Source of the DNA: Candidatus Zixiibacteriota bacterium
GTDB lineage: Bacteria > Zixibacteria > MSB-5A5 > GN15 > FEB-12
Assembly (NCBI GenBank): GCA_040752815.1
Contig: JBFMGC010000011.1
Coordinates: forward strand, 6,352 to 70,351
Reading direction: 5' to 3'
Length of the DNA: 64,000 nt
The notes under the pieces were generated by a model. That model saw only the letters and a list, made by a program, of their open reading frames with translations. It had not been told where the DNA came from and ran no database searches. The first letter of the stretch is position 1. Each line of letters starts with the position of its first letter. The translations under genes were made by a program, and so were the position numbers. This document shows positions 5,799 through 61,211 of this stretch, in pieces.

Positions 5799-7208
5799 CT
5801 ACTGCCCGTAACGCTTGCGGAATTCCTCCGCCGCCTTAATTCGCGCCTTCTTTACCTCTTCCGGTTCGTTGCCGGTGTACCACTTGTGGTCATCCATATC
5901 GAGTACCGACGCTATCAGCTCTTCGACTTCTTTGGCAGCTACCGCTTTCTCGTCACCTTCGGCCTTGCCGTGCTCGACTATCTCACGAGCCTGCGCCAGG
6001 AAGGGGCCGTAGAACCGGTCGGCAACTTCAAAGAAGCCGTGCCATTGCGTGTAATCGGGGGCGAACATGGCGGCGCCCATCCGCGCCCGACGTCCCTCGT
6101 GATGCCAGAGATAGAAGTAGGTCCACTCGAACTCATCGTCGAAAGTAATATCCGCCGTGATTAGTCCGGTCGATCTGATCTTGTCATAGATATTGGTCGC
6201 CGGGATTGCGAACTTGTTGTTGTAGAGTTCGACCGCAGCGTCGTACTGCGTGTAGAAGTTGTCTACGTAACTGCTCGTGTGGCAGTTGGAGCAGACGTTT
6301 TTCATGTCTGCCCGACGAGCCTCCCAGCTCTTGACCGTCTTGCCGGCCTTTTTCGCGGCGGCGTCGACCTTTTGCGAAATCGGCGGGCGCAGAGTCCAAC
6401 TGATGCGGTCGCCGACATCGTGTGTCAACGGTAAATCCTGGGTGGCCGACATGTGGCAGGTCGCGCAGGTCGGCGCGGCCGAGTAGTCCACGCCCACTAT
6501 CCATGACGCGCTTCCCAGTGCCATGCGGTCGATATTCGCGTAATAGGCGATCCCGTGCTTTGATTCCTCGTAGATTTCTTTCTGGGGATGGTCCGGGCCC
6601 AGGTGGCACTTGCCGCAATTCTCGGGCTGGCGCGCGAGGGCGGCGTCGAACGAATGGCGGCTATGGCAGGCGGCGCATGACCCCTTGGAGCCGTCGGGGT
6701 TGATCCGCCCCATGCCGGAGTTTGGCCAGGTGGCCGGGTCAAGCTGCCCCTCGGCGAGCACCTTGACTACCGAACCATGACACTGCTTGCAGCCGTTGAC
6801 CGCGGCCGCCGGACCCTCGACCACCTCACCGAGGACATTGTCCAGCGAACCCAGAATCGCACCGGCATCGGCATGGTGCGATTTCTGAAACTGCTCGAAC
6901 TCGACCTGGTGGCACTTAGAGCAGTCTTTCGGTGAGACGATTATGGCGATGTTATACCCGTTGTGCTCGAAACCGTCGGGATCACTCGGCTCAGCCGCGT
7001 GACACTCAAAGCAGCCGACATCGGCTGCGTAGTGACGGCTCCAGCGCCATTCCTTTACCAGTCCCGGCATGTCGGATTCGTGGCATTCGATACACGATGC
7101 CGACTCCTCGGTCAGCTTGTTGGGAACCGAGCGATACTGGCCGACCACGGCTGACCCGGCCAGCCCCATAATCAGTATCCCGATTAGTATAGTTTTTCGC
7201 TGTCTCAT
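5799..7208 (-). CDS. Octahaem c-type cytochrome, hydroxylamine-oxidoreductase-like (HAO/epsilon-Hao-like) family
   Basis: Eight CxxCH motifs are present (CIECH, CFECH, CSKCH, CKQCH, CAACH, CGKCH, CATCH, CSNCH). There is an N-terminal signal/anchor (ILIGILIMGLAGSAVV). The C-terminal segment WTYFYLWHHEGRRARMGAAMFAPDYTQWHGFFE matches my recollection of HAO-family proteins. A GGAGG sits 12 nt upstream of the ATG. Confidence 0.75.
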   Translation of the reverse strand: MRQRKTILIGILIMGLAGSAVVGQYRSVPNKLTEESASCIECHESDMPGLVKEWRWSRHYAADVGCFECHAAEPSDPDGFEHNGYNIAIIVSPKDCSKCHQVEFEQFQKSHHADAGAILGSLDNVLGEVVEGPAAAVNGCKQCHGSVVKVLAEGQLDPATWPNSGMGRINPDGSKGSCAACHSRHSFDAALARQPENCGKCHLGPDHPQKEIYEESKHGIAYYANIDRMALGSASWIVGVDYSAAPTCATCHMSATQDLPLTHDVGDRISWTLRPPISQKVDAAAKKAGKTVKSWEARRADMKNVCSNCHTSSYVDNFYTQYDAAVELYNNKFAIPATNIYDKIRSTGLITADITFDDEFEWTYFYLWHHEGRRARMGAAMFAPDYTQWHGFFEVADRFYGPFLAQAREIVEHGKAEGDEKAVAAKEVEELIASVLDMDDHKWYTGNEPEEVKKARIKAAEEFRKRYGQ

Positions 7209-7268
7209 AGTGTGTTTAATCCTCCAGTCGTATCGCCTTCAGTCGTCTTTATCAGTCGAGTACGCTTG

Positions 7269-8561
7269 TCAAAAGTTCACAGTGGTTTGAGTGTACAGCC
7301 ACCATGTCGGGTCGGCCTGGGTAAGGTCGGCATCGCCCTCGCGAAATCGTACGAACGATTCTTTGGGCAGAAACACCGACCCTCCCGCAGTAGCCTTGAC
7401 TCCGGCTATGCTAACGGTGTTGATCGTGATGTCTATCTCCATGCCGACGTCGAAGGTGGCCTGTCCGGTGCCGGGATCGCGATAGTTCTGCGCCGTGCGG
7501 AAGTAGTGGAAGTCCGCGCCGGCGGTCCAGTTAGGATGAGGATTAAACCTGGCTCGACCCAGGATATCTATAAGCCCCGCCGACTCCGAATTGACGAAGT
7601 TATCCATATAGCCCCTGAACTTGTGGCCGGTGTAATACGTGTTGTCGTAAGTTTTGATTTTCGTGTCGGTGGAATCATCGTCGCCCGAGGCGAAGTCGAC
7701 ACCGGCCGAAATCTGTGCTTTGGCGCTACCGGCGAAAGCATAACCGGCCTCGGCAGTTAACATAAAAGCCTGGAGATCGTAAGTAGTCGCTTCGTTGATA
7801 ACCTGGCCCGTCTGAAATGCACCGTTTAGCTCTAAATCAAGTGGTTCGATCTGCTTCTTATAGTAGATGCCGAAGTTCCACCGATCGAGCACATGATCGT
7901 CCGGATCGGTCACGCTTGTTTCTTCTCCAAAGAGTGATCCGGCCGTGTCAAAATCGATTTCGTAAAAGGCGAACAGTTCTACTCCGGCGCTGTCCAGCTC
8001 GACCAGCGCACCGAAAACATCGAAATCACCGTTGAAGCCTTCGTAATTCTCTTCCTGCGGTTTTAGCCAGAAGCCGTTTATGGTGAAGCCGGGGGACTCA
8101 TACCACCCGATCGCCCCCTCCCATATGCGGCCGACATTGTGCCAGTCTACCGAGCCGAACACGCGCTGATTTCCCAGGTCGAACGCAAACCGGCCGGCCT
8201 TGCTGCCAAAGCCGTCGAACCAGATCCGGTCAACCTGGATGTATGCCTGATGCAGGTCAACGTTTTTGCCGTCGTTCAACGAGCCGGACTGCAGCTTGCC
8301 GAACTGATCCCTGCCTCCGAGAGTGCGGCTGTCCTGGAATTGAACAAAAGCGTGCGCGTTGCTGTCGATCGTGGCCTCTAAGCCGACCCGTGTTCTCATG
8401 AGCGCAAAAGTCCGGGTCGTGAACGCCGTATCGAATGACTTTTCATCAAGCTCGCACCGCACTCGGATCTGCCCCGATGTTTTAAGGGTCGTCTCCGCCG
8501 ATGCCGCACCAGTGAGTATCGCCAGAATCGGGATCAGGACGCTGAAATGACATTTTTTCAC
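7269..8561 (-). CDS. Outer-membrane beta-barrel porin-like protein (possibly alginate-export-like family)
   Basis: Start is reassigned to the GTG at 8561, preceded by AAGGAG. This gives the signal peptide VKKCHFSVLIPILAILTGAASA-ETT. The sequence shows an alternating amphipathic pattern rich in Gly/Asp/aromatic residues and ends YTQTTVNF, with the terminal Phe typical of OMP beta-signals. It lies 60 nt upstream of the octahaem cytochrome on the same strand. Confidence 0.6.
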   Translation of the reverse strand: MKKCHFSVLIPILAILTGAASAETTLKTSGQIRVRCELDEKSFDTAFTTRTFALMRTRVGLEATIDSNAHAFVQFQDSRTLGGRDQFGKLQSGSLNDGKNVDLHQAYIQVDRIWFDGFGSKAGRFAFDLGNQRVFGSVDWHNVGRIWEGAIGWYESPGFTINGFWLKPQEENYEGFNGDFDVFGALVELDSAGVELFAFYEIDFDTAGSLFGEETSVTDPDDHVLDRWNFGIYYKKQIEPLDLELNGAFQTGQVINEATTYDLQAFMLTAEAGYAFAGSAKAQISAGVDFASGDDDSTDTKIKTYDNTYYTGHKFRGYMDNFVNSESAGLIDILGRARFNPHPNWTAGADFHYFRTAQNYRDPGTGQATFDVGMEIDITINTVSIAGVKATAGGSVFLPKESFVRFREGDADLTQADPTWWLYTQTTVNF

Positions 8562-8647
8562 GTTGAACTCCTTGAAGCCTGAGAATCCTGTTAATGCCGT
8601 GTCTCGGTCATGCGTCGGATCGCCCCGGCGGTCCACGCGACACTGCC

Positions 8648-9776: not shown

Positions 9777-10613
9777 ATGCGTTTCATCAAGTCACTCCTC
9801 CCGGCGGGGACGACCGTTTCTCTAACCGTTTTCCTGGCGCTCGGCTGCTCGGATGACAAGAAGCTCACTCCGCCTACGCCACCCGAGGATCATGGTATCG
9901 AGTCGATGCTCGGGCTGATTCAGTCTCAGGTACATGAGTATCTCGATTCGGCTGCGGCCGCAATGGAAGCCGGCCTCGAAGTAGCCACGTTTATCGATGT
10001 CGACTATACCGACATCGGCGACGCCTTCATGGGGCCGGGCCTGCCGGATTCGACTGTCGACCAGCGCCGCTGGATCGTGTCCTACCTGACGGATCTCTCA
10101 TCCGGCACAGGAACCCTGTCGATTATTGACTCACTTGCGTACGTGGTAAACGGCAATCTGAGCATCAACGCGCGCGGTGCCCAGGCCATGTATGTCAAAC
10201 ATAACTACGGTTTTGTCAGCGACGACACCACGGTGACTTTTACCGATCGCACGAACCGCGGTGATCTCCACATTACGGGGATCGACGGCACCACTGCTAC
10301 CATCAACGGTGAGTTCCAGGTGACGATCAGGGATAAGTTCGTGGCGTCAGATTCGACGGTCTGGAACAACTGGATTATCAATTCGACGGTCTCCGAGCTG
10401 GCTTTCACGCGTACCGGCTTGACCTGGACCACGGGTTGCCCCAACTCCGGGACGTGCACCGTGAACGTCGAATACCAGTACGGCCGCAATGAGGACATCC
10501 CGACCACCACGGAATGGCAGTTTGACATCACGTTTACGGATGGAACGATAGCGGCCGATGTCGCCGTGGGGCAGTTGCGGACGTCATACGACTACACGCT
10601 CTGCACGCCGTAG
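9777..10613 (+). CDS. Hypothetical lipoprotein
   Basis: Signal peptide with lipobox (VFLALGC-SDD). AAAGGAG Shine-Dalgarno. Thr/Gly-rich, beta-rich sequence with no family I recognise. Confidence 0.6.
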   Translation: MRFIKSLLPAGTTVSLTVFLALGCSDDKKLTPPTPPEDHGIESMLGLIQSQVHEYLDSAAAAMEAGLEVATFIDVDYTDIGDAFMGPGLPDSTVDQRRWIVSYLTDLSSGTGTLSIIDSLAYVVNGNLSINARGAQAMYVKHNYGFVSDDTTVTFTDRTNRGDLHITGIDGTTATINGEFQVTIRDKFVASDSTVWNNWIINSTVSELAFTRTGLTWTTGCPNSGTCTVNVEYQYGRNEDIPTTTEWQFDITFTDGTIAADVAVGQLRTSYDYTLCTP

Positions 10614-12006: not shown

Positions 12007-12178
12007 TACGCAGGCCCCCAAACCCGGTCAGTCTCCTTGACAAAAACCTGTTCGAGGGTACTTTGAGTCAGTGGTCACCGGCGAAACTACCCGGTCCCAC
12101 AATATGTTACACAGGCGCGACGGTACTCGCGTCCTATGGGTGGCACATGATCAATTCCCGGAAACAGGACAATTCCCG

Positions 12179-14944
12179 ATGACAACCCACGGACGTCACC
12201 GAATAGTCGCGACTCTTGTTCTAACCGTATCGTTAAGCCTTATCGGCAGTGTTGAATTGTTGGCGGAGCCAATCGGACTGGTGACCATTAGCAGCGACTC
12301 AGATGCTGAGGTCGCCCGGTCCATTGTAGGCACCGCCTATATTCGGAGCAGCAACCGGTTCCTGGTGACGGCCGATTTGGTGCAACAGGGTATGCTGTCG
12401 TCGGCCGGGCTCGAGTTCGAATTGCTGCTCGAAGAGGCCGACCCTGCCGCGGTCTATCAGATCTATGCGCTCGATCATCCCAAAGCGCCGATGATATTGG
12501 ATCTCGAGGCGTTTGGCCGCGTGATCGAACTCGGGCGCGACATCCGAATCATGCAACTGACTCGCGCTGAGGCCGCCTCGGTGGCTGATGATGCCCAGCT
12601 CGAGACGGTCAGTCTGAGCGAATTATCCGTGCCGATATTCTATCCGCACCCCGTGGTTGCTGCTCCGCTGGTGGATACCTACCCGTCGGATTCGCTCACT
12701 AATCGCGTAAATCAGGACTCCCTGCGGGCCTTTGTGCAGCGTCTCGAAGATTTCCGCACCCGTTACACTTACACCGATTCGTGCCTGCGTGCGCGCGACT
12801 GGATCGCCCAGAAGTTCCGTGACTGGGGGTATACGGATGTTACCACTCCCGCGTTCTACTATGGCGGCGCCTGGCATTACAACGTCAAGGCGGTGAAGCC
12901 GGGCGTGGCAGAGCCGGACAAGGTGATCGTGATCGGCGGCCACTATGACTCTTACGTACGCAGCGATCAGTCGCCCGGACGGTTTATCTACGCCCCCGGG
13001 GCCGACGACGACGGATCGGGAACGGCGCTGACCCTTGAGGCTGCCCGCGTGCTGGCCAATGTTCCGCTCCGCAAGACGGTGATCTTCATGCCGTTCGGCG
13101 CCGAGGAGATCGGCCTTGTAGGGTCCCAGAATGCCTCGGCAGATTTTGTCACCGCTGGAACGAAACTGGAGGTCATGTACAATTTCGATATGGTTGCTTT
13201 TACGGCCAATTCGTACTGGGATTTCGAGTTCTCGTCGGGCGACATCACGGCCTATCGCGATTTCTCCATTGCCAGCGCCGTGCGAGTAAGTGACCTCATT
13301 CCGGTGACCGCCTCCGCCGGTTCGAGTTCGGACCATTACCCGTTTGACCAGCGCGGCTTTCCTATTGTCAACCACATCGAGTCTGATTTCAATACCCTCG
13401 GATGGCACACCAACCTCGACCTGACCTCGCGGCTGAACATCCCGTACTTTGCCGAAGTTACTAAGACGGCGGTGGCCTCGCTCGCGGTCGTGGCGGATGC
13501 CGCATTTCCAGCGCGAATAACCAGCATTGCTGATGTCGGCGACGGTCAATCGCTCGAAGTCGTCTGGTCGGATTGCAACCCCGGTTGCCAATACACGGTC
13601 TACTGGGGAAGTGCGCCAGGGAACTACACCGATTCGGTTGTGGCTCCGGTCGGCCAGTGTGATGTCACCATCACCGGGTTACTTACGGGCCAGACCGCCT
13701 ATATCCTGGCATTGGGGGTGGCGCCTAACGGATATCGCGCCTTGTACGGCGTTGGAGCAAGCGGCACACCGCTTTTGTATCCGCGAGCGCCGTCGTCATT
13801 CTCCGGAAGCCCCCACGGTTCCCAGATGCGCGTCGATCTGACCTGGCGGTCGAACAACGAACTGGATTTGTCTCACTACCGGCTGTATCGCCGCGTTAGA
13901 GATGTGGGAGTATGGCTGACCATTCAGGACGGCATCACCGATACTTCGGCGACAGACTACGACCTTACTCCGCACGTGGGCTACCAGTATGCCGTGGCCG
14001 CGGTCGATAATGACGGTTACGAGTCACCCATGTCTCAGGCGGTGCTGATCTACCCGGCCACCTACGACGGTGGGCCGGTGATCGGGGATGGATTTGTGAA
14101 GGATCACGACGATGACCCCACGCAGGCCCAGCAGGAAGCCTGGCTTGACACGATTCTCGGTACGAACGGCTTCGGCGTGGCGCCGTCCGACGAATACGGC
14201 GGTCCGGTGACGTTATCGACGATCGGCCAGTATGGCACGCTGCTCTGGATTGACGACGACGTGATTGTTAAGAACATTGCCGCCAGCGCACCCGCCCTCG
14301 ATGAGTTCTCCCAGCACGGCACCAATATGCTCATCTCCGGGTTCCGGACCTGGTACGGATGGTCTGCCAAATCAGTGCCGACCTCGCACCTGCTCTACCG
14401 TGAATTCGGTTTATCGTACTATGATTACACGGCGCAGTTTGATTTTATCGGGGCCTTCGGTCAGGACGGCTGGCCCTCGGTGCAGATCGATCCCACCCGA
14501 GGAGTGGACGAATGGCGCGATATCGCCAAGCTGACCGGCCGCCCCGGCGCGCAGGTCATACTTCGCTTCAATTCGCTCCTGGACCTTCCGGAATGGGAGA
14601 ATCAGCCGGTCGGACTTGCGTATGAGACCGCCAACGGCAAGCGGGTGCTATTATCGTTCCCACTGTACTATCTCACTCCGGCTTCGGCCACCGCTCTGAT
14701 GACCAAAGTATTCGAGTACTTTGGCGTATCGGCGCATTTCAACAAAGGGGATCTGGACAACTCCGGAACTATCGACGTAGTTGACATTACGATCCTGATC
14801 GATCACCTCTTCATCAGTCAGAGCCCGCTCCCCGACCCTTCCGCTGCGGAGATGGACGCCAATCCGGGGGTCAGTATCGGCGACGTCTTCGTGCTGATCG
14901 AGTATCTCTTTCTTGGTGGCCCCGCGCCCTCCGCTCGACCGTAA
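12179..14944 (+). CDS. Secreted M28-family metallopeptidase with FN3/Ig-like middle region and C-terminal dockerin-like double repeat
   Basis: Start is set at the ATG at 12179, giving the signal peptide MTTHGRHRIVATLVLTVSLSLIGSV. M28 metal-binding motifs are HYDS, GADDDGSGTA and FGAEEIGLVGS. The C-terminus reads GDLDNSGTIDVVDITILIDHLFIS..DANPGVSIGDVFVLIEYLFL. Confidence 0.85.
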   Translation: MTTHGRHRIVATLVLTVSLSLIGSVELLAEPIGLVTISSDSDAEVARSIVGTAYIRSSNRFLVTADLVQQGMLSSAGLEFELLLEEADPAAVYQIYALDHPKAPMILDLEAFGRVIELGRDIRIMQLTRAEAASVADDAQLETVSLSELSVPIFYPHPVVAAPLVDTYPSDSLTNRVNQDSLRAFVQRLEDFRTRYTYTDSCLRARDWIAQKFRDWGYTDVTTPAFYYGGAWHYNVKAVKPGVAEPDKVIVIGGHYDSYVRSDQSPGRFIYAPGADDDGSGTALTLEAARVLANVPLRKTVIFMPFGAEEIGLVGSQNASADFVTAGTKLEVMYNFDMVAFTANSYWDFEFSSGDITAYRDFSIASAVRVSDLIPVTASAGSSSDHYPFDQRGFPIVNHIESDFNTLGWHTNLDLTSRLNIPYFAEVTKTAVASLAVVADAAFPARITSIADVGDGQSLEVVWSDCNPGCQYTVYWGSAPGNYTDSVVAPVGQCDVTITGLLTGQTAYILALGVAPNGYRALYGVGASGTPLLYPRAPSSFSGSPHGSQMRVDLTWRSNNELDLSHYRLYRRVRDVGVWLTIQDGITDTSATDYDLTPHVGYQYAVAAVDNDGYESPMSQAVLIYPATYDGGPVIGDGFVKDHDDDPTQAQQEAWLDTILGTNGFGVAPSDEYGGPVTLSTIGQYGTLLWIDDDVIVKNIAASAPALDEFSQHGTNMLISGFRTWYGWSAKSVPTSHLLYREFGLSYYDYTAQFDFIGAFGQDGWPSVQIDPTRGVDEWRDIAKLTGRPGAQVILRFNSLLDLPEWENQPVGLAYETANGKRVLLSFPLYYLTPASATALMTKVFEYFGVSAHFNKGDLDNSGTIDVVDITILIDHLFISQSPLPDPSAAEMDANPGVSIGDVFVLIEYLFLGGPAPSARP

Positions 14945-25052: not shown

Positions 25053-26750
25053 ATGTCTGCGGAACTTAGTGCCATTCTGGTAAAAGCGGGGAAGATCACC
25101 CAGGATCAGGCGAATGCGGCACTGGAACGTTCCAAACAGACCAAGGAAAAATTCTCCAAAGTCCTGGTTGACCTGGGGGCGGTCGCCTCGGAAGACGAGG
25201 TCATAAACTTTGTCGGCAAGCACCTTAAGATCGGTGCGCTGCGGCTGAGCGATGTCGAGCTCAACCCCGAAGTAGTCAAGCTCATCCCGCTCGATATCGC
25301 CCGCAAGTTCAAAGTCATCGCCATCAGCAAGATCGGCAAGACGCTGCTGGTGGCCATCAGCGACCCCAATAACATCTACGTACTCGACGCTATCAAGTTT
25401 ATCACCGGTTGCAATGTCCAGCCGGCGATCGCGCCCGAAAGAGAAATCGAGAAGGCGATCGAGCAATACTACGCCGACACCGGCGCCCTGTCTGAAATCG
25501 TCAAAGGTCTCGAAGACGATCCGGATCTCGAGGTCGTTTCCACCGAGGACATCCCCTCCGAGACCGACCTGATGTCTCAGATTCAGGACAAGCCTCTGGT
25601 CAAGCTGGTGGATTCGATCATCGGCGACGCCATCCGGATGGGGGCTTCCGATATCCACTTCGAGATGTACGAGAAGAAGATTCGCGTGCGCTACCGTATC
25701 GACGGCGAGCTTCAGGAGATGGCCCCGCTGCCCTTCAAATACCGCGCCGCCATCGTGTCGCGTATCAAGATTATGGCCGAACTGGACATTTCGGAACGTC
25801 GGTTACCCCAGGACGGGCGCATCAAGATCAAGATCACCGGTCGCACGGTCGACCTTCGTGTCTCGGTGCTGCCGACCATATTCGGCGAGAAGGTCGTAAT
25901 GCGAATTCTCGATCCGATGGCGCTGCGGATAGATATGACCCAGCTCGGTTTTCGCGAGCCCGACCTGGCTCGCTTCCATGAGCGCATTCACGCGCCGTTC
26001 GGCATTGTGCTGGTCACCGGCCCGACGGGTTCAGGTAAGACGACAACGCTGTACTCCGCGCTTCAGCAGTTGAATACAATCGATGTCAACATCATGACCG
26101 CCGAGGACCCGGTCGAGTTCAATTTCGAGGGGATTAATCAGGTAGCGGTCAAGCCGGACATCGGACTGACCTTCGCCAACGCCCTGCGCTCATTCCTTCG
26201 TCAGGACCCGGACATCATCATGGTCGGTGAGATTCGTGATAGTGAGACCGCCGAGATCGCCATCAAGGCGGCGCTCACGGGCCATCTCGTGTTTTCGACG
26301 CTGCACACCAACGACGCGCCCTCGTCGGTGACTCGTCTAATCGATATGGGTACGCCCAATTACCTCGTGGCGTCGGCCACGCAGCTCATCATGGCCCAGC
26401 GCATGGTCAAAAAGATCTGCCAGAAGTGTAAGGAAGAGGTCAACCTGACCGCAGAGCAAGTGGAAGCGCTCAAGATGGGGCCGGAGATGCTCAAGGGTAT
26501 TCGCGCGTTCCGGGGGAAAGGGTGCAGCGCCTGCAACAACACCGGCAAGTCGGGCCGAACGGGTATCTATGAGGTAATGCCGGTAACTCCGGCTATCGAA
26601 GAGATGATCCTCAAAAAGGCTGCCGATTCCGCCATTAGAAAAGTCGCGATGGACGAGGGGATGTTCTCGCTGCGCATGGCGGCGGTGGACAAGATGAAGC
26701 AGGGCGTCATCAGTATCGACGAAGTTTTCTCTGTGACCGGTACGAACTAA
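25053..26750 (+). CDS. pilB: Type IV pilus assembly (extension) ATPase PilB / GspE family
   Basis: N-terminal T2SSE_N-type domain. Walker A GPTGSGKTTTLYS, Asp box, Walker B/His box (IIMVGEIRD, GHLVFSTLHTND) and a tetracysteine CQKC..CSAC. Confidence 0.9.
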   Translation: MSAELSAILVKAGKITQDQANAALERSKQTKEKFSKVLVDLGAVASEDEVINFVGKHLKIGALRLSDVELNPEVVKLIPLDIARKFKVIAISKIGKTLLVAISDPNNIYVLDAIKFITGCNVQPAIAPEREIEKAIEQYYADTGALSEIVKGLEDDPDLEVVSTEDIPSETDLMSQIQDKPLVKLVDSIIGDAIRMGASDIHFEMYEKKIRVRYRIDGELQEMAPLPFKYRAAIVSRIKIMAELDISERRLPQDGRIKIKITGRTVDLRVSVLPTIFGEKVVMRILDPMALRIDMTQLGFREPDLARFHERIHAPFGIVLVTGPTGSGKTTTLYSALQQLNTIDVNIMTAEDPVEFNFEGINQVAVKPDIGLTFANALRSFLRQDPDIIMVGEIRDSETAEIAIKAALTGHLVFSTLHTNDAPSSVTRLIDMGTPNYLVASATQLIMAQRMVKKICQKCKEEVNLTAEQVEALKMGPEMLKGIRAFRGKGCSACNNTGKSGRTGIYEVMPVTPAIEEMILKKAADSAIRKVAMDEGMFSLRMAAVDKMKQGVISIDEVFSVTGTN

Positions 26751-26911
26751 CACTCTCCAGGCTTTATCGTCCCCCCCAGAATCATTTGCCCGTCAATCAC
26801 TTAAACCGGCCTACCGGCACTTTGGCGGTCAAGATTCTGCTCTGATTACCGATAACAGACAGAGAACAACTTTGGGAGTCAAAACCGCTTTCGCAGAAAG
26901 AGGAGTTCTCG

Positions 26912-27988
26912 ATGGTCTCGTTGCGCGAATTGCTGGAACAGATGGTTCGAATGGGTGCATCGGATCTGCACCTCACCGCCGGATCCCCGCCCGTGGTGCG
27001 GGTTGACGGTAAACTTCAGCGAATGCCTTATGACATGCTCACCAGTGAGGAAACGAAGAAGATTGCCTATTCGATGCTCAACGAGAAACAGAAGCTAAAA
27101 TTCGAACAGAATTGGGAGCTTGATTTTTCTTTCGGTATCGAATCAATGAGCCGGTTCCGCGCCAACATCTTCATGCAGCGTGGCAACGCGGCAGTCGCTC
27201 TGCGCCAGATTCCCTATGAGATCAAGACTTTTGAGCAGCTTGGTCTGCCTAAAGTGATATCGGATTTCGCCAAGTTGCCGCGTGGCCTCGTACTCGTGAC
27301 TGGCCCGACCGGCTCCGGTAAATCGACCACGCTCGCGGCCGTAATCGACAAAGTCAATAAAGAGCGCCCGGTGCACATAATCACGGTGGAAGATCCGATC
27401 GAATACCTGCACCGCCACCAGATGGCGCTCATAAACCAGCGCGAGGTATACTCGGATACGCCGTCGTTCGCGTCCGCACTGAAGTACGCCCTACGCGAGG
27501 ACCCGGACGTGGTCCTGGTGGGTGAGATGCGTGACCTGGAGACGATCGAATCGGCGCTCTCGATATCGGAGACCGGCCACCTGGCTTTCGCCACGCTGCA
27601 CACCAACTCGTGCGCGGAGACGATCAACCGAATTGTGGACGTCTTCCCGACCAATCAGCAGGAGCAGATTCGGGTGACGCTGTCGTTCACGCTGCAGGCC
27701 GTGGTGTCACAGGTTTTGATACCGAAAATCGGCGGCGGGCGGGTGCTCGCCATGGAAATCATGATTGCCACGCCGGCGGTCAGAGCGATCATCCGCGATG
27801 ACAAGATCCATCAATTGTACTCGATGATCCAGTCCGGCCAAAAATACGGAATGAAGACGATGAATCAGTCGCTGGCCGAGCTGTACCAGGCCGGTAAGAT
27901 TTCCATCAACGATGCCATGGGCACCAGCCACAACCAGCAGGAGCTGAGCGAAATGCTCTCGCGGCAGAAAGCGCCGGCCTACGCCTGA
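26912..27988 (+). CDS. pilT: Twitching-motility (retraction) ATPase PilT
   Basis: GASDLHLTAGSPPVVRVDG, GPTGSGKSTTLAA, VLVGEMRDLETI, GHLAFATLHTNS and an AIRNLIRE-like AVRAIIRDDKIHQ motif. 358 aa. Confidence 0.9.
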   Translation: MVSLRELLEQMVRMGASDLHLTAGSPPVVRVDGKLQRMPYDMLTSEETKKIAYSMLNEKQKLKFEQNWELDFSFGIESMSRFRANIFMQRGNAAVALRQIPYEIKTFEQLGLPKVISDFAKLPRGLVLVTGPTGSGKSTTLAAVIDKVNKERPVHIITVEDPIEYLHRHQMALINQREVYSDTPSFASALKYALREDPDVVLVGEMRDLETIESALSISETGHLAFATLHTNSCAETINRIVDVFPTNQQEQIRVTLSFTLQAVVSQVLIPKIGGGRVLAMEIMIATPAVRAIIRDDKIHQLYSMIQSGQKYGMKTMNQSLAELYQAGKISINDAMGTSHNQQELSEMLSRQKAPAYA

Positions 27989-28027
27989 GGCGGCGTGCTG
28001 AGATCGGAATGAGAAAGGAATACTGAT

Positions 28028-43729: not shown

Positions 43730-44230
43730 ATGTCGACAGTGTCCGCACATGCTTTCGAAACCAGTCTGGGAGTAATCCGGGTTGCGTCTACCAAGACTGG
43801 CCTCGCCCTGATCTCCCTGCCGGGCGAGTCGGACAGGTCGTTCGATAACCGAGTGAGGCGACTGGCCAAGGGGACGGAAGTCGTGAACGACGGAACTCCG
43901 TTTCGCGAGGTGAATCGTCAGATTGCAGAATACCTGGACGGACAACGTAAAGAGTTCACCGTGCCGCTCGATGTCCGAGGCACGGCATTTCAACTTTCGG
44001 TGCTTAGCCGGGTAAGCGCTATCCCGTACGGCAGGACACGCACGTACGGAGAAATCGCCAATGAAATCGGCCGGCCGGGGGCGTCCCGGGCGGTGGGAAT
44101 GGCAAACGCGAAAAACTGCCTGCCGCTGATAATACCCTGTCATCGTGTGGTCGCCGCCGATGGCCTCGGCGGATATGGGGGTGGAATCGAATTGAAGAGA
44201 AAACTGCTTGAATTGGAAGGAGCACTTTGA
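43730..44230 (+). CDS. ogt: Methylated-DNA--protein-cysteine methyltransferase
   Basis: YGEIANEIGRPGASRAVGMANAKNCLPLIIPCHRVV carries the active-site PCHRV. 166 aa. Confidence 0.88.
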   Translation: MSTVSAHAFETSLGVIRVASTKTGLALISLPGESDRSFDNRVRRLAKGTEVVNDGTPFREVNRQIAEYLDGQRKEFTVPLDVRGTAFQLSVLSRVSAIPYGRTRTYGEIANEIGRPGASRAVGMANAKNCLPLIIPCHRVVAADGLGGYGGGIELKRKLLELEGAL

Positions 44231-44283
44231 GCGCCGGGAATGTTTTGACCGGAAGCTCAGAGGCCGTCTACAGGAGAAGTAAC

Positions 44284-45384: not shown

Positions 45385-45461
45385 GCGCTGATGCTCGTGT
45401 AAACAAATGCCGGCATGAGTGTGAATCATGCCGGCGTTGTTGTTCTTGCGCGGTGGGCGCC

Positions 45462-47237
45462 TTATATGCAGAAGGGCAATGGTAACTGGGCGATGAACAG
45501 GTGATCGATCAGTTGGGTGACATCGCCGATGCTGATATCGCCCTCCTGAGGATTCGCACCCCCGGATTGGTTTATATCGGCCTCGGCCAGACACGCTGGC
45601 GGGATAAGCGATATGAACAGGAAGTCGATGAGCATGGTCACGTCACCAATGGTCGGCACGTCACCCCCAAGGCCGTTGACATCGCCAACCCTCCCCGAGC
45701 AACAGCCGAAGTCCACCCGAATGGCGGAATCGACCTTGATGATGCCCCAGCCGTACGTGTTGTCCGGTGCTCCGGCCATCGTTCCGGACATCTTCAGCGC
45801 CTCGCGTACACGCCTCGGCGACCAGTCGGGGTGGGCCTCGATAACAAGACAGGCGGCGCCGCCCACCAGCGGTGCGGCAAAGGATGTGCCACTCCCGGCG
45901 GCGTAGGTATTCAGGCTTGTCGGGTGAGCGGTAATGGTCGAGACACCCCGGGCACAAACCTCGGGTTTGATGCGGTTATCCGACGTGGGCCCGCGACTGG
46001 AGAATCCGGCGATCAGCCCGTTGCTATCGACCGCGCCGACTGCCAGAATGTCGAAGGCATCCGCCGGAGCGGTGATGGTCCCCGCGCCGGGGCCTTCATT
46101 TCCGGCTGACTTGGTGACTACGATACCGAGACTATCGGCCATGCTCGCTGCGACTGACGAAATCGCAGTCAAACCATTCATGTCCGCGTAGGTGTAATTG
46201 CACCCGCAGGAATCGTCGAAATCAAGATAGCCCAGCGATGAGGTCAGTACGTCCGCGCCGATCGAATCGGAAAATTCCATTGCTGCCACCCAGTTGTCCT
46301 CCTCGACCGGCATTTCCGACCTGATGTCTTCAGTCTTACAGATTATGAAATTCGCGCCGTAGGCCGGGCCATAGAGGAAACCATCGGCAATCCCGCCCGC
46401 CACTCCCCACACCTGCGTGCCGTGATTGGGCTGGCTGGAAAAGTCTCCGTTGGCAGCCTCATAATCAACATTGGTATCGTCGTTGATGAAATCATACTCG
46501 GCCAGGACTCGCCCCTCGGCGTAAGCCGCTGCAAAATACTGATGAGCTCGCCGGGCGCCGGTATCGAGAATAGCCAGAGTCACACCCTGTCCTGAGTATC
46601 CCAGGTCGTGCACCGCCGGGACGCCGATCTGATTGAGCTGATTGAAGGAAACGCCATAGTTGAGGGCGTGAACGGACTCGCCTCCTTCCTGCGGAACGGG
46701 ACGGGTTTCGTCGATCGGCTCCGGCGCCCGCCGGTATCGCGAAACGGGCCGGACCTCCGACACATACGGCAGCCGCGATATGTTTTCAACTACGTCTGGT
46801 CTCGCTATAAACGTGGCTGCATTCAGCCAGCGTGAGGATCTCCGATGCCGCGCGCCGAGGGCTTCTATCTCGCTGATATACGAGGTAGAGACGGGCAAAT
46901 CCGCGAACACCACCCGATTCAGGCCGACTTTCGCCCGGCGGTTGGTTGCCCGTTCGGTTAACCTGATCGAGGTCGCCGCTCGTTGAAAATCGGCCTTGTT
47001 TCTCACCTCTTTGTCCGTGAAAAACACCCAGAACTTGACCGAGTCGTCCGGTCGTTGGGCCAGGCAGTCGCGGAAAGACGGAACCAGAGGATCGGTGAGG
47101 CGTTCGCGAACGGCGGCGTCAGGGTCAAGAAAGCCGGGTCGACCGGCAGAATCGGCCGTCTTTGCAGATGGGGCTGCCAGCGAACTGACAAGCACAAGCG
47201 CGACTGGGATGAGCTGTCGGAGCGGGTGGAAGATCAT
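45462..47237 (-). CDS. Secreted S8 (subtilisin-like) serine peptidase with C-terminal dockerin-like double repeat
   Basis: Signal peptide. Catalytic triad contexts AILDTG (Asp), HGTQVWGVAGG (His) and SGTSFAAPLVGG (Ser). The C-terminus reads GDVNGLGGDVPTIGDVTMLIDFLFIS...GDISIGDVTQLIDHLFIAQLPLPFCI. Confidence 0.88.
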   Translation of the reverse strand: MIFHPLRQLIPVALVLVSSLAAPSAKTADSAGRPGFLDPDAAVRERLTDPLVPSFRDCLAQRPDDSVKFWVFFTDKEVRNKADFQRAATSIRLTERATNRRAKVGLNRVVFADLPVSTSYISEIEALGARHRRSSRWLNAATFIARPDVVENISRLPYVSEVRPVSRYRRAPEPIDETRPVPQEGGESVHALNYGVSFNQLNQIGVPAVHDLGYSGQGVTLAILDTGARRAHQYFAAAYAEGRVLAEYDFINDDTNVDYEAANGDFSSQPNHGTQVWGVAGGIADGFLYGPAYGANFIICKTEDIRSEMPVEEDNWVAAMEFSDSIGADVLTSSLGYLDFDDSCGCNYTYADMNGLTAISSVAASMADSLGIVVTKSAGNEGPGAGTITAPADAFDILAVGAVDSNGLIAGFSSRGPTSDNRIKPEVCARGVSTITAHPTSLNTYAAGSGTSFAAPLVGGAACLVIEAHPDWSPRRVREALKMSGTMAGAPDNTYGWGIIKVDSAIRVDFGCCSGRVGDVNGLGGDVPTIGDVTMLIDFLFISLIPPACLAEADINQSGGANPQEGDISIGDVTQLIDHLFIAQLPLPFCI

Positions 47238-48124: not shown

Positions 48125-48156
48125 GCGCCGCAACACCGGTACTAGCGCCCAGATTT

Positions 48157-48212
48157 AGCCGGCCGGCCTGAAGTTTCGGGACCTCGCGAGACAGGCCGGC
48201 CGGCTTTTTTTT
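48157..48212 (+). terminator. Rho-independent terminator after the minor pilin gene
   Basis: agccggccggcctg ... caggccggccggct forms a 14-bp perfect stem with a 21-nt loop, followed by a run of 8 T. Confidence 0.8.
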
Positions 48213-49483: not shown

Positions 49484-49494
49484 GGCACGGCACC

Positions 49495-59339: not shown

Positions 59340-61211
59340 CTAGTCATTGAATTCAAAGCACGGCAGCGGAAGCGGGTTTAGAGACACGAATAAATGATCA
59401 ACAAGTTGCCGGATATCTCCAATCGAAAGCTGACCGTCGCAGGTAACGTCACCCAGGAGGCTGTCGGGGAATATCGGTACCCCGCTGCCAAAAACGTGGT
59501 CGATGAGCAAGGTGATATCACCGACGCTCACATCGGCGTCATTGTTCACATCGCCTCGGGCGATAGAGAGTATGGCCCGATAGGCGTCAACGCGGCCATA
59601 GCCGGTTTCGGGTACTGGTACCGACCCGGAATCGTGAACGGCAGAACCTGTCAGTACGCCGTATACCGAGTAAGCGGAGGTGTCGCATATTGCTGGCATC
59701 CCGGGATCTCTGGCCAGCACGAGGGAAGCCACACCTGAGACGGTCGCTGCTGCGGCTGAGGTACCGCCGGATTTGCAGTCGAAGTCGGGGTCCCATCCAT
59801 TTGGCGGAGGGCAGTCCCAAGTTATGGGCGGACATCCGGGCCAGTATGTTAAATGCGGGTTCCATCCCAAATTGCCTTCCTGGTCAAGAGACCAAATGGT
59901 TCCCTGCCGGCACAATTCGCTGCTGGGGGCCACAAGGTCCCAAGTTAATTCCGTACATGGAGTAATTCAGGCGGTCGTTGAACTGGTCGCATGCGCCTAC
60001 ACCAATGACAGGCGCGAGAATCGCCAACCACGACATTCTCTCCGGATACGCTATCGCGTCATTACCGGAAGCAAACACGATTGTACATCCCTTTCCGTCG
60101 CGGCCTCGGATTGCGGCACTGTCAATTGCCATCCATACGATATCGGAGAATTCGCAGATCCAGCTGTTGGAAAGGACGTCCGCCCCGTGTTGCCATGCGT
60201 AGTGAATTGCCTCAGCCGTCGAATACAACGACACCCCTTGACCGGAACACCGGTAGTCGCGAAATATCTTCACGGGCAAGATGCTCACATGCGGGTTGAG
60301 TGACATTACACCGCTGTAGTCAGGAGCGCTCATTATCTGACTGGCAATTGTGTGATTAGCGGCAATAAGACCTGTGCACCCCATACCGTGCCCGCAACTG
60401 TCGCCAGGGGAAGGGTCGTCATCATCATCCGCGAAGTCGTATCCCGGTAAGATACGTGCCTGATCAAGATCATAGTGGCCTGTAACCCCGTCGTCGACTA
60501 CAGCCACGACTAAACTGTCCGTAAGGCCCGCGAAGTCCCACACGGAAGCCGTGCCAAGGTTGCCAATAACTTGCATGACATTCCACTGATAGGTATGGTA
60601 TTTATCGTCAAGGGTATAAGCCGTTTGGCGAAGGCTGCCGGCGGTGTTCGGGTGCGAGAAGTAGGTCTCGTCGATACCGTAGTACAGATTTGCCATTTCA
60701 AGCAGCCCAAATTCGCTCGACTGAGAGATACTCAGCACGTAAACGCTTGGTGTGTGCCTGCTTATCTTCTCGACTATAACGTGATGTTGCTCGTTCAGAG
60801 CGTCGACACGCTCTTGCGTTACGTCGTGGCGAAAACCAACCACAAAGGTAGGGCCGCTGTTGAAGGCTTGCCCATTGATCGTAAGGTAATATGGGTCTAT
60901 CATGGCAACCCCCTCGACGTTTCTGAGAGCGGCTCTGACCTGTTCTAAATCATAGCCCGAAGCAAGTGAATAGGCATAGAAGCCGTCGGTTGGGTAGTCA
61001 TCCACAAGCCACTATCCAGCGATGGAGACTGTTTTGTCAATGCCCCTCGCACGGAATCAGTGACATATGGCTCGAACTTGATCTTTACCTTTGATTGGTC
61101 GATCTTCAGGGGAGTTTCCATTCCCCCGCTGAAGTAATGTTGCGCTTGAGTGATTGCTGGTGTGAAAAGTACTACGATGACTAAGATTTCGACTGCCGTA
61201 CGCTTACGCAT
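59340..61211 (-). pseudogene. S8 subtilisin-like peptidase with dockerin-like C-terminus, disrupted by two frameshifts
   Basis: Three consecutive minus-strand ORFs in three different frames together make one subtilase. ORF 61211-60945 carries the signal peptide MRKRTAVEILVIVVLFTPAITQAQ plus a pro-region. ORF 61005-59884 carries Asp VAVVDDGV, His CGHGMGCTG and Asn ASGND. ORF 59933-59340 carries Ser SGGTSAAAATVSG plus the dockerin-like repeats. The frame breaks lie near 60990-61005 and 59925-59940. Confidence 0.75.

What the first reader, a model, noticed from the sequence alone, without database searches (positions are those of the whole stretch)
14747..14941. Shared C-terminal dockerin-like double repeat (..GD.....GD(I/V)..LI(D/E)(H/Y/F)LF(I/V/L)..PLP..) on three different secreted peptidases
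Seen in the sequence. Three proteins end with two copies of the same ~25-aa motif:
- The M28 peptidase (nt 14747-14941): GDLDNSGTIDVVDITILIDHLFISQSPLP..DANPGVSIGDVFVLIEYLFL.
- The intact S8 peptidase (nt 45465-45686, minus strand): GDVNGLGGDVPTIGDVTMLIDFLFIS..GDISIGDVTQLIDHLFIAQLPLPFCI.
- The frameshifted S8 peptidase (nt 59343-59555, minus strand): GDVNNDADVSVGDITLLIDHVFGS..GDVTCDGQLSIGDIRQLVDHLFVSLNPLPLPCFEFND.
- Both S8 copies have a Cys just after a PLP(L)P motif at the extreme C-terminus.

Established knowledge:
- The D-x-D/N-x-(D/S)G-x-I-x-x-x-D pattern followed by a hydrophobic helix is the EF-hand-like calcium loop of type I dockerins.

Inference:
- In an organism with no cohesin gene evident in this window, the module may act as a cell-surface retention or sorting tag for exoproteases.
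- It may dock onto an unidentified partner.
Basis: partly seen in the sequence, partly recalled or inferred. Interest (0 to 1): 0.55.

Follow-up and report, generated by a model that had tools for sequence, protein, structure and literature searches.

The report
Divergent dockerin modules on secreted peptidases
Three secreted protein-cutting enzymes in this window end in a true but divergent dockerin, the calcium-binding plug that cellulose-degrading bacteria use to clip enzymes onto a scaffold; it belongs to a large, largely unannotated subfamily that is heavily expanded in Zixibacteria and probably assembles surface protease complexes.

Summary
An M28 peptidase, an intact S8 peptidase and a frameshifted S8 peptidase each end in a duplicated ~25-aa motif, found nowhere else in the six frames (5 regex hits against 0 in 300 shuffles).

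It is a dockerin:
- Pfam Dockerin_1 is borderline: 21.2, 12.4 and 23.6 bits against a cut-off of 22.9.
- A profile of the three modules finds essentially only type I dockerins in the PDB (best E = 6e-7).
- AlphaFold models (pLDDT 92.8 and 84.8) match only dockerins, at about 2 Å rmsd for the best matches.
- No T9SS or PEP-CTERM signal was detected.

The three modules are different subtypes (36–42% identical), not recent duplicates. They belong to a family of about 16,000 cluster representatives. One Zixibacteria genome has at least 23 carriers, mostly peptidases and adhesin-like proteins, often in tandem gene arrays.

The S8a subtype has longer calcium loops and co-varying cysteines, implying 2–3 disulfides including a covalent N-to-C clasp.

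The window has no cohesin. A carrier-rich Zixibacteria genome does encode a scaffoldin-like gene with three cohesin-like repeats (Pfam Cohesin 28.0 bits, cut-off 24.1).

The most likely function is calcium-dependent docking of exopeptidases onto cohesin-like surface scaffolds. This is a new variant of a known kind, of moderate interest.

The parts
12071..14944 (+). M28 aminopeptidase gene. The maximal ORF starts at 12071; the likely true start is the ATG at 12179, MTTHGRHRIVATLVLTVSLSLIGS, which reads as a signal peptide. Architecture: M28 domain, fn3 domain, unannotated ~220-aa region, dockerin module.
   Evidence: Peptidase_M28 E = 8.7e-30 (residues 271-468); fn3 at 573-657 is sub-threshold (23.5 bits against a cut-off of 25, E = 6.6e-5).
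14747..14941 (+). M28 dockerin module, Cys-free subtype. Loop 1 is canonical at 12 residues (DLDNSGTIDVVD). Loop 2 is shortened to 10 (DANPGVSIGD). The module ends ...YLFLGGPAPSARP.
   Evidence: Dockerin_1 21.2 bits as an isolated module. AF2 pLDDT 84.8. The Foldseek top 30 are all dockerins, the best being 8x3a/8x39 at 32-35% identity. Loop lengths.
45462..47237 (-). Intact S8 subtilase gene (S8a) with a signal peptide, propeptide region, catalytic domain and dockerin module.
   Evidence: Peptidase_S8 E = 2.1e-41. A syntenic orthologue in L044 is 64% identical.
45465..45704 (-). S8a dockerin module, 4-Cys subtype (CC...C...C). Loop 1 has 14 residues and loop 2 has 19. It ends LPLPFCI.
   Evidence: Dockerin_1 only 12.4 bits. 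AF2 pLDDT 92.8 and pTM 0.83, with a beta-bridge between residues 9 and 82 of the model. The Foldseek top 20 are all dockerins. Cys co-variation.
59340..61211 (-). S8b subtilase, disrupted into three ORFs (60945-61211, 59884-61005, 59340-59933). It is a pseudogene or carries assembly indels.
59343..59555 (-). S8b dockerin module, 2-Cys subtype. Both loops are the canonical 12 residues (DVNNDADVSVGD, DVTCDGQLSIGD). It ends PLPLPCFEFND.
   Evidence: Dockerin_1 23.6 bits as an isolated module, above the 22.9 cut-off. Close relatives P0001-P0003 carry a precomputed PF00404 hit.
59939..59941 (-). Frameshift site in S8b: a GGG run. Deleting one G restores ...NLDLVAPS..., the conserved subtilase motif.
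   Evidence: read directly from the sequence.

Best explanation
Each of the three C-terminal modules is a true dockerin. It is a duplicated F-hand module, with two calcium loops each followed by a helix, homologous to the type I dockerins of cellulosomes but from a divergent subfamily with the signature ..GD..LIDHLF...

The proposed pathway is as follows. The peptidases are exported through Sec using their N-terminal signal peptides. The module then folds around Ca2+. In the S8a subtype it is additionally locked by two disulfides: one from the first Cys of the CC pair to the mid-module Cys, and one from the second CC Cys to the C-terminal Cys, which forms a covalent N-to-C clasp. The S8b subtype has one disulfide and the M28 subtype has none. 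The folded module then plugs the enzyme non-covalently into a cohesin-like module of a surface scaffold or anchor protein. This would concentrate several exopeptidases and endopeptidases at the cell surface, giving a protease counterpart of the cellulosome.

Shown: homology, fold, family size, carrier spectrum, Cys co-variation, and cohesin-like genes in a carrier-rich relative.

Inferred: calcium binding, disulfide formation, the cohesin interaction, and surface location.
For: Homology to dockerins:
- Dockerin_1 is the only Pfam family hit, at 21.2, 12.4 and 23.6 bits against a gathering score of 22.9.
- A profile of the three modules finds 24 PDB chains at E <= 10, essentially all dockerins. 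The best is 4fl4_A at E = 5.9e-7.

Fold:
- AF2 models have pLDDT 92.8 and 84.8.
- The top 20 and top 30 Foldseek hits are all dockerins. Target-normalised TM reaches 0.82-0.83 and rmsd is about 2 Å or better for the best matches (1.5-2.6 Å for the M28 module's leading hits).

Family:
- 16,353 cluster representatives at E <= 1e-3 and 3,429 at E <= 1e-10.
- 38 loci in reference genomes, 23 of them in one Zixibacteria MAG.
- 164 carriers in 863 kb, often in tandem arrays.
- Carriers are peptidases (M14, C1, C10, M1, M64, S8) and TSP3, PKD or FG-GAP proteins.

Constraint:
- The S8a orthologue in syntenic L044 keeps the module at 64% identity, against 72% for the catalytic domain, with all Cys retained.

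Disulfides:
- Over 155 modules the optional Cys pair co-occurs with phi 0.99, and CC(1) with the mid Cys at phi 0.89. Patterns with 4 or 6 Cys dominate.
- The AF2 model shows a beta-bridge between the N-terminal and C-terminal segments.
- Non-covalent N-to-C clasps are a known dockerin feature that stabilises the cohesin-binding site (PMC3821032).

Partner:
- In the same Zixibacteria MAG, next to a carrier, L002 encodes a signal-peptide-bearing gene with three cohesin-like repeats.
- Pfam Cohesin scores 28.0 bits (cut-off 24.1), 16.4 and 15.0 on these repeats.
- All 9 PDB hits of the domain profile at E <= 10 are cohesins, aligned in register.

Precedent:
- Dockerin-tagged S8, C25, M14 and M12B peptidases with cohesin scaffolds have been proposed for Cloacimonadota (PMC8542988) and Planctomycetes (PMC6461901).
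Against: - No cohesin or cohesin-like domain is detectable in the 64-kb window.
- The cohesin assignment in L002 rests on the N-terminal third of the domain only. Profile-profile probability is just 7%, and no homologues were found in the large protein database.
- The carrier-internal copies alone hit cohesins only weakly.
- The cohesin-like gene is from another genome, and the window's own organism is unidentified.
- Three of the six calcium loops have non-canonical lengths of 10, 14 and 19 residues, so calcium binding may be altered.
- 93% of modules sit at the very C-terminus, which would also fit a sorting tag.
- How such proteins would cross an outer membrane is unknown.
- Many dockerin-bearing genomes are reported to lack cohesins (Peer et al. 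2009, cited from memory; the paper was not held).
Confidence: 0.6

Rival explanations
1. Orphan dockerin-like module with no cohesin partner. On this view it is a calcium- and disulfide-stabilised C-terminal knob. It might bind something else, such as envelope glycan, an S-layer, the substrate or another dockerin, or it might simply stabilise secreted enzymes in harsh extracellular conditions.
For: - No cohesin in the window.
- No Cohesin hit among 78 large secreted neighbours of carriers, and none with a CipA-type profile in 756 ORFs.
- There are about 164 carriers against a handful of cohesin-like domains.
- The helix residues are strongly conserved across many organisms (I/G at loop positions 10-11, I-D at 17-18). 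In cellulosomes these positions vary with specificity.
- Tandem arrays of 9-12 units (P0041, P0042) look more like a structural repeat than a plug.
Against: - Cohesin-like repeats do exist beside a carrier in the most carrier-rich genome.
- A high dockerin-to-cohesin ratio is also normal in cellulosomes.
- Both repeats of the module keep the same conserved face, as in dual-binding-mode dockerins.
- No alternative ligand is suggested by any result.
Confidence: 0.25
2. Secretion or sorting signal. On this view the module is recognised by an outer-membrane export or attachment machinery, a T9SS-like or T2SS-like route, in the way the T9SS C-terminal domain is. It would direct export or covalent anchoring of cargo.
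For: - 154 of 165 module instances are at the extreme C-terminus, usually ending one residue after the last Cys.
- There are dozens of diverse secreted cargoes per genome.
- The module and the T9SS CTD are almost mutually exclusive C-terminal tags on similar enzymes, including S8 peptidases, in the same contigs.
- Paired cysteines imply folding in the periplasm before outer-membrane passage.
Against: - Six N-terminal and five internal occurrences, multi-position proteins P0044 and P0054, and tandem arrays do not fit an obligate C-terminal signal.
- There is no match to Por_Secre_tail, CHU_C, PEP-CTERM or any NCBIfam sorting model.
- The fold is the helical dockerin fold, not the beta-sandwich of T9SS CTDs.
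- No hydrophobic or transmembrane tail follows the module.
- Canonical dockerins on enzymes are also mostly C-terminal.
Confidence: 0.1
3. Not a real shared feature: chance similarity, low-complexity sequence or a recent duplication confined to this locus.
For: Only three carriers occur in the window. Two of them are S8 paralogues and one of those is a pseudogene.
Against: - 0 motif hits in 300 shuffles against 5 observed.
- The three modules are only 36-42% identical and belong to distinct subtypes, each with closer relatives elsewhere.
- The family has thousands of members.
- The AF2 models are confident.
Confidence: 0.01

Closest known systems
Type I dockerin (Pfam PF00404), for example Clostridium thermocellum Xyn10B, Cel9D and Cel48S dockerins (PDB 1OHZ, 2CCL, 4FL4, 2MTE)
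   Same: Both are ~60-80-aa modules made of two tandem F-hand segments, each a calcium loop plus a helix, with a short linking helix. They usually sit at the C-terminus of secreted enzymes. The Asp/Asn ligands at loop positions 1, 3, 5 and 12 are recognisable. The fold matches at about 2 Å rmsd. The N- and C-termini come together, as in the known intramolecular clasp (PMC3821032).
   Different: - The helix signature is LIDHLF(I/V) rather than the LLxRYLLG type.
- Loop 1 is 2 residues longer and loop 2 is 7 residues longer in the S8a subtype. Loop 2 is 2 residues shorter in the M28 module.
- There are 2, 4 or 6 conserved co-varying cysteines, so the clasp would be covalent. No disulfide clasp is described in PMC3821032 or found in the literature searched.
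- Pfam scores fall below the gathering cut-off for two of the three modules.
- The carriers are peptidases and adhesin-like proteins in a probably diderm, uncultivated lineage, not CAZymes of Firmicutes.
Dockerins on cellulosomal proteases, for example the double-dockerin of C. thermocellum serine protease Clo1313_0689 (PDB 8X39, 8X3A)
   Same: This is the best structural match of the M28 module, at 32-35% identity and E about 1e-3, and it is a sequence hit of the three-module profile. It shows that dockerins do tether peptidases.
   Different: That protein has two dockerins in tandem and belongs to a classical cellulosome with known cohesins. It has no cysteine bracket.
Proposed non-cellulosomal peptide-degrading complexes: the 'planctosome' of freshwater Planctomycetes (PMC6461901) and the cellulosome-like complex of Cloacimonadota 'Ca. 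Stygibacter' (PMC8542988)
   Same: - Signal-peptide-bearing peptidases carry dockerins: M14 and M12B in the first case, S8/S53 and C25 in the second.
- TSP3 repeats are present.
- The organisms are diderm and uncultivated, including the FCB group.
- In Stygibacter the scaffoldin has tandem cohesins and is anchored by a T9SS CTD.
- In the Zixibacteria loci studied here, T9SS-CTD proteins are the commonest neighbours of carriers.
   Different: Both published models are purely genomic hypotheses and rest on dockerins and cohesins that InterPro recognises. Here the dockerin subtype is largely invisible to Pfam, is far more expanded, and is Cys-bracketed. The candidate cohesin is very divergent. 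No Zixibacteria case was found in the literature searched.
T9SS C-terminal sorting domain (Por_Secre_tail PF18962 / TIGR04183)
   Same: It is a C-terminal tag shared by dozens of secreted hydrolases per genome in FCB-group bacteria, and it occurs in the same genomes.
   Different: It has an unrelated sequence and fold, a beta-sandwich with NYPNPFNP...KMxLLK motifs. No profile match was found. The two tags are almost mutually exclusive on proteins.

Membership tests
Dockerin type I (PF00404 / dockerin superfamily) | Significant match to the family profile at the curated threshold | tested here: inconclusive
   As isolated modules the scores are 23.6 (S8b, above the 22.9 cut-off), 21.2 (M28, just below) and 12.4 bits (S8a, well below). 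In the full-length proteins the scores are 20.3, 14.3 and none. The joint profile of the three modules hits PDB dockerins at E = 5.9e-7.
Dockerin type I (PF00404 / dockerin superfamily) | Two tandem ~22-residue segments, each a 12-residue EF-hand-like loop followed by a helix (F-hand) | tested here: met
   Duplication is present in all three modules. The helices fall at model residues 23-35 and 63-75 in S8a, and at 23-35 and 56-68 in M28, with a short linking helix at 43-46. Loop length is the canonical 12 in only 3 of the 6 loops; the others are 10, 14 and 19.
Dockerin type I (PF00404 / dockerin superfamily) | Acidic or polar calcium ligands at loop positions 1, 3, 5, 9 and 12 | tested here: met
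   The canonical loops fit: DLDNSGTIDVVD, DVNNDADVSVGD and DVTCDGQLSIGD. In the extended loops, D1, N3 and the helix-start Asp are 85-100% conserved across 65 modules. The geometry of the inserted loops is not verifiable here.
Dockerin type I (PF00404 / dockerin superfamily) | Dockerin three-dimensional fold | tested here: met
   Foldseek against the PDB: the top 20 (S8a) and top 30 (M28) hits are all dockerins, with target-normalised TM up to 0.82-0.83 and rmsd of about 2 Å or better for the best matches.
Dockerin type I (PF00404 / dockerin superfamily) | Calcium-dependent folding and high-affinity binding to a cognate cohesin | not testable with these tools
   No cohesin is present in the window. 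Cohesin-like repeats are present in a carrier-rich Zixibacteria MAG: L002 scores 28.0 bits on Pfam Cohesin against a cut-off of 24.1. Binding itself has not been tested.
Cohesin (PF00963), for the L002 scaffoldin-like gene outside the window | Profile match over the ~140-aa jelly-roll domain | tested here: inconclusive
   One repeat is above the cut-off (28.0 bits) and two are below (16.4, 15.0). Only model positions 3-56 are matched. All 9 PDB hits at E <= 10 are cohesins.
T9SS C-terminal sorting domain (PF18962 / PF13585) | Profile match and a beta-sandwich CTD at the extreme C-terminus | tested here: not met
   No hit at E <= 10 on the isolated modules. A local CTD profile built from true CTDs in the same genomes finds no window hit and overlaps a module-bearing ORF only once. 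The fold is helical.
PEP-CTERM / other exosortase- or sortase-type sorting signals | Short motif followed by a hydrophobic transmembrane helix and a basic tail | tested here: not met
   The proteins end 1-5 residues after the last Cys (or in GGPAPSARP), with no hydrophobic stretch. There are no NCBIfam or Pfam sorting-signal hits.

The most novel reading that the evidence does not exclude
Zixibacteria and related uncultivated diderm bacteria may build a disulfide-locked cohesin-dockerin system dedicated to protein degradation, a 'proteolysome'.

In this reading, dozens of peptidases and adhesins per genome carry a loop-expanded, covalently clasped dockerin. They plug into highly divergent cohesin-like repeats of scaffoldins. 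Some enzymes carry both a cohesin-like and a dockerin module side by side and could therefore daisy-chain. The system would run in parallel with T9SS tagging, as a second and separate way of dressing the cell surface.
Probability: 0.3. Interest if true: 0.7.

Novelty: new variant of a known kind. Interest (0 to 1): 0.45.

Why it matters
Extracellular peptidases control protein turnover in sediments and soils, where Zixibacteria-like organisms live. How diderm, uncultivated bacteria hold such enzymes at their surface is poorly known.

Three points follow from this analysis:
- A very large dockerin subfamily, about 16,000 cluster representatives, largely escapes standard annotation. Most database members are labelled 'hypothetical', and two of the three modules here fall below Pfam's cut-off.
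- The family suggests a covalent, disulfide version of the dockerin clasp. That could interest designers of stable synthetic scaffolds.
- The analysis names concrete candidate partners, the cohesin-like repeats in L002 and inside some carriers. This makes the idea of a protease-assembling cellulosome analogue outside Firmicutes directly testable by binding assays.

Tried and rejected
Searches that returned nothing or failed:
- Looking up the window's source contig by exact protein (S8a and PilT): not on record. The organism remains unidentified.
It was repeated with a tighter 6-sequence alignment.
- Harvesting diverse cohesins from a CipA seed: only 10 close relatives came back. The resulting narrow profile found nothing in 756 ORFs, and hhalign of that profile against 655 ORFs gave at most 17% probability. 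That weak hit nevertheless led to the L002 cohesin-like gene.
- Deepening the cohesin-like family in the 5.8-billion-protein database: no hit at E <= 1e-3.
- Profile-profile comparison of the cohesin-like domain with CipA-type cohesins: 7% probability.
- Peer et al. 2009 (PMC3035643): not held.
- Literature search for dockerin plus Zixibacteria: no papers. Search for disulfide-bearing bacterial dockerins: nothing relevant.

Readings considered and rejected:
- T9SS CTD, PEP-CTERM or another sorting domain: no profile hit and the wrong fold.
- Recent local duplication: the modules are 36-42% identical and of different subtypes.
- A generic EF-hand: the EF-hand Pfam models score only 12-13 bits on one loop.
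- The fungal Cys-rich 'dockerin': an unrelated fold (own knowledge).

- The disulfide geometry could not be measured, because model coordinates are not exposed.
Full report
**1. Observation**

- An M28 aminopeptidase: ORF 12071-14944 (+), Peptidase_M28 E = 9e-30.
- An intact S8 subtilase, 'S8a': 45462-47237 (-), Peptidase_S8 E = 2e-41.
- A disrupted S8 subtilase, 'S8b': fragments 59884-61005 and 59340-59933 (-).

A regular expression for the helix motif finds five copies in all six reading frames, all within these three C-termini. The sixth copy differs by one residue. The same expression gives zero hits in 300 residue shuffles. The M28 and S8a proteins begin with plausible signal peptides. 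The S8b signal peptide lies in a third ORF, 60945-61211.

S8b has two frameshifts. One is an extra G in a GGG run at 59939-59941; removing it restores the subtilase motif NLDLVAPS. The other lies near 61000. The Cys after PLP(L)P in both S8 proteins is present.

**2. What the module is**

Sequence evidence:
- Pfam Dockerin_1 is the only family with signal, and it is borderline. The isolated modules score 23.6 (S8b), 21.2 (M28) and 12.4 bits (S8a) against a gathering score of 22.9. Full-length scores are lower.
- No T9SS (Por_Secre_tail, CHU_C), PEP-CTERM or NCBIfam sorting model matches.
- A profile of just the three modules retrieves 24 PDB chains at E <= 10. Essentially all are dockerin modules. 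The best is a C. thermocellum type I dockerin, 4fl4_A, at E = 5.9e-7. The list also includes the double-dockerin of a C. thermocellum serine protease, 8x39.

Structure evidence:
- AlphaFold2 models built on a 40-sequence alignment are confident. S8a has pLDDT 92.8 and pTM 0.83. M28 has pLDDT 84.8.
- Both show two long helices joined by a short one.
- Foldseek against the PDB returns only dockerins in the first 20 (S8a) and first 30 (M28) places. Target-normalised TM reaches 0.82-0.83 and rmsd is about 2 Å or better for the best matches.

The modules are dockerins by homology and by fold.

**3. Anatomy and subtypes**

The three modules are 36-42% identical to each other and represent three subtypes. 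Each has closer relatives elsewhere.
- S8b type: two canonical 12-residue loops and two Cys, one in loop 2 and one in the ...PLPLPCFEFND tail.
- M28 type: no Cys, a canonical loop 1, a loop 2 shortened to 10 residues, and the tail ...YLFLGGPAP.
- S8a type: an N-terminal CC, a Cys after helix 1 and a Cys at the penultimate position. Loop 1 has 14 residues and loop 2 has 19.

Across 65 Zixibacteria modules the S8a-type signature is very tight. The two helix-start Asp residues are 100% conserved, the CC pair 91-95%, the mid Cys 91% and the terminal Cys 95%. The motifs PTIGD..LID.(L/K)FI and EADINQSGG..P...DITIGD..LIDYLFITG are nearly fixed.

Cysteine co-occurrence was measured over 155 unique modules.
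- An optional Cys pair, one in the post-helix-1 insert and one in the loop-2 insert, co-occurs with phi 0.99.
- The first Cys of the CC pair tracks the mid Cys with phi 0.89.
- Patterns with 4 Cys (63 modules) and 6 Cys (47 modules) dominate.

I infer two or three disulfides. By elimination, the second CC Cys pairs with the C-terminal Cys. The AF2 model places a beta-bridge between residues 9 and 82, so the two termini do meet.

Non-covalent N-to-C 'intramolecular clasps' are an established dockerin feature that stabilises the cohesin-binding face (PMC3821032). The cysteine bracket here would be a covalent version. I found no description of one.

**4. Distribution and carriers**

- An exhaustive profile search of 1.84 billion cluster representatives gives 16,353 proteins at E <= 1e-3, 3,429 at E <= 1e-10 and 62 at E <= 1e-30. 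In most of the best hits the match ends at the last or second-to-last residue.
- In reference genomes, 38 loci were recovered with two strict peptide patterns. Of these, 23 are in one near-complete Zixibacteria MAG (MFD05942.bin.1.404), 11 in a second Zixibacteria MAG (AUK044), two in other Zixibacteria and two in an Ignavibacteriales bin.
- With 80 further metagenome loci, the 863 kb I hold contain 164 carriers. They often lie in tandem arrays of three or four genes.
- Carrier domains are mostly peptidases (C1, M14, C10, M1, M64, S8, InhA-like) and adhesin-like repeats (TSP3, PKD, FG-GAP).
- Database entries are mostly unnamed or 'hypothetical protein'.
- Contig L044 is syntenic with window 44.2-49.5 kb, and its S8a orthologue keeps the module. 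Identity is 64% in the module, 72% in the catalytic domain and 49% in the signal and propeptide region, with all four Cys retained. The module is therefore under constraint similar to the enzyme itself.

**5. Sorting tag or docking module?**

Of 165 module instances, 154 are C-terminal, 6 are N-terminal just after the signal peptide and 5 are internal.
- Proteins P0044 and P0054 carry the module at both ends and internally.
- P0041 and P0042 are arrays of 12 and 9 Cys-bracketed units.

That does not fit an obligate C-terminal export signal.

The same genomes also contain true T9SS type-A CTDs (NYPNPFNP...GVYFYRL...KMxLLK) on other secreted proteins, including S8 peptidases. These T9SS-CTD proteins are the commonest neighbours of carriers. 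Only one ORF combines a CTD-like domain with the module. The dockerin module is thus a separate class of tag from the T9SS CTD. Canonical dockerins above Pfam's cut-off also occur in these genomes (L023, 36.5 bits), so there is a continuum from canonical to divergent.

**6. The partner question**

The window contains no cohesin.
- Ten secreted or unknown window proteins have no Cohesin hit.
- A CipA-type profile finds nothing in the window. Its seed was validated as essentially identical to 1OHZ_A.
- A profile of the Zixibacteria cohesin-like domain also finds nothing in the window.
- Pfam scans of 68 and then 10 large secreted neighbours of carriers show no Cohesin. The first scan lists only the 25 commonest families, so it is a weak negative.

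A weak hhalign signal pointed to three overlapping minus-strand ORFs in L002. This locus belongs to the same Zixibacteria MAG that has the most carriers, and the ORFs lie divergently beside a carrier.
- They are one gene broken by frameshifts. Its first domain is split over three frames at contiguous genomic positions.
- The gene starts with a signal peptide and contains three repeats of a ~220-aa domain about 1.2 kb apart, with dockerin-like segments between them. It runs off the contig end.
- Pfam Cohesin scores 28.0 bits (cut-off 24.1), 16.4 and 15.0 on the three repeats, always over model positions 3-56.
- The domain profile's only PDB hits are cohesins: 2vn5_A and 1g1k_A at E about 0.01. 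With a deeper alignment, all nine hits at E <= 10 are cohesins from five organisms, aligned in register.

Against this:
- Profile-profile probability is only 7%, with very shallow alignments.
- No relatives were found in the large database.

The same domain also occurs inside several carriers, directly before their dockerin: L001 (an M14 carboxypeptidase, E = 1e-7), L094, L095 and L043. On their own these copies hit cohesins only weakly.

I rate 'cohesin-like' as probable (about 0.7) for L002. It is a concrete candidate partner, but it comes from a related genome and not from this window.

**7. Mechanism**

The best-supported reading is as follows. The enzymes are exported through Sec. The module folds around calcium and, in the Cys subtypes, is locked by disulfides. 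It then docks the enzyme onto cohesin-like repeats of a secreted or surface-anchored scaffold, giving a multi-peptidase surface assembly.

This parallels two published genomic proposals.
- The 'planctosome' of Planctomycetes, with dockerins on M14 and M12B peptidases plus TSP3 repeats and cohesins (PMC6461901).
- The cellulosome-like complex of Cloacimonadota, with C-terminal dockerins on S8/S53 and C25 peptidases and a 3,755-aa scaffoldin that has tandem cohesins and a T9SS CTD (PMC8542988).

Shown here: homology, fold, family, carriers, constraint and Cys co-variation. Inferred: calcium binding, disulfides, cohesin binding and surface location. Unknown: how the enzymes cross the outer membrane.

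Rivals are an orphan stabilising or other-ligand module (0.25), a sorting signal (0.1) and chance or duplication (about 0.01).

**8. Comparison and novelty**

Membership in the dockerin superfamily is met on duplication, ligand pattern and fold. It is borderline on the curated Pfam threshold. The defining function, cohesin binding, is untestable here.

The module differs from characterised dockerins in four ways.
- Its helix signature.
- Its loop insertions and deletions.
- Its cysteine bracket.
- Its carriers and host lineage.

Non-cellulosomal dockerins on peptidases are already known as a concept, so this is not a new kind. It is a new, large and poorly annotated variant, with a plausible new stabilising device and a candidate divergent cohesin. 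Interest is moderate, at 0.45. The most novel reading not excluded is a disulfide-locked 'proteolysome' system in Zixibacteria, with enzymes that carry both cohesin-like and dockerin modules. I put that at about 0.3 probability, and it would be of high interest if true.

Noticed in passing
window 59340-61211 (-): The S8b subtilase is split into three ORFs by two frameshifts. One is an extra G in the GGG run at 59939-59941 and the other lies near 61000-61010. It is either a decaying paralogue or the result of assembly indels. Its dockerin module is still intact.
   Followed up: partly
L002:1-4085 (-), Zixibacteria MAG CAVTJJ010000001.1: A scaffoldin-like gene with a signal peptide and three cohesin-like repeats (3401-2753, 2188-1547, 999-340), with dockerin-like segments between them. 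It is broken by frameshifts, runs off the contig end, and lies divergently next to a dockerin-tagged carrier.
   Followed up: yes
L001:5380-6000, L094:440-1012, L095:1-540, L043:2-460: The same cohesin-like domain sits immediately upstream of the terminal dockerin module inside some carriers, for example an M14 carboxypeptidase. Cohesin and dockerin in one enzyme could allow self-association or daisy-chaining.
   Followed up: partly
L001:8759-11680, L010:2-3496, L010:8919-12239, L098:4577-8257, L098:10350-13112 and others: Proteins with a classical T9SS type-A C-terminal domain, several of them S8 peptidases, are the commonest neighbours of dockerin-tagged carriers. The two C-terminal tags are almost mutually exclusive. 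Only L020:2147-4102 combines a CTD-like Ig domain with the module. No T9SS CTD was found in the window.
   Followed up: partly
P0041 (1187 aa), P0042 (720 aa), from the exhaustive protein search: These proteins consist of 12 and 9 tandem Cys-bracketed dockerin-like units (CGD.N...GGPAP...D.NGDG...GGPAP.C). P0041 also has a segment that reads like a peptidoglycan-binding motif, judged by eye only. This poly-dockerin architecture is unlike known cellulosomal proteins.
   Followed up: no
L044 (Ga0316628_100035426) against window 44227-49480: A syntenic metagenome contig from a related organism. Identities are 83% for the aminopeptidase, 64% for the S8a orthologue with its module retained, 64% for the pseudopilin and 94% for PilM.
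   Followed up: yes
window 25053-29227 and 47597-53746 (+): Two type IV pilus gene clusters, identified by eye from the translations: PilB/PilT/PilC, and a pseudopilin with PilM/N/O, a PilP-like gene and a PilQ-like secretin. Only the 50885-52432 protein was scanned, giving a weak PilP hit. The S8a gene lies directly upstream of the second cluster, on the opposite strand.
   Followed up: no
window 5799-8636 (-): A multihaem c-type cytochrome (Multi-haem_cyto, MtrC/MtrF-like domains) lies next to an Alginate_exp-type outer-membrane beta-barrel. This may be an extracellular electron-transfer pair.
   Followed up: no
window 9777-10613 (+) and 38072-39481 (+): Two predicted secreted or lipoproteins with no Pfam family at E <= 0.1. 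Neither matched the cohesin-like profiles.
   Followed up: partly
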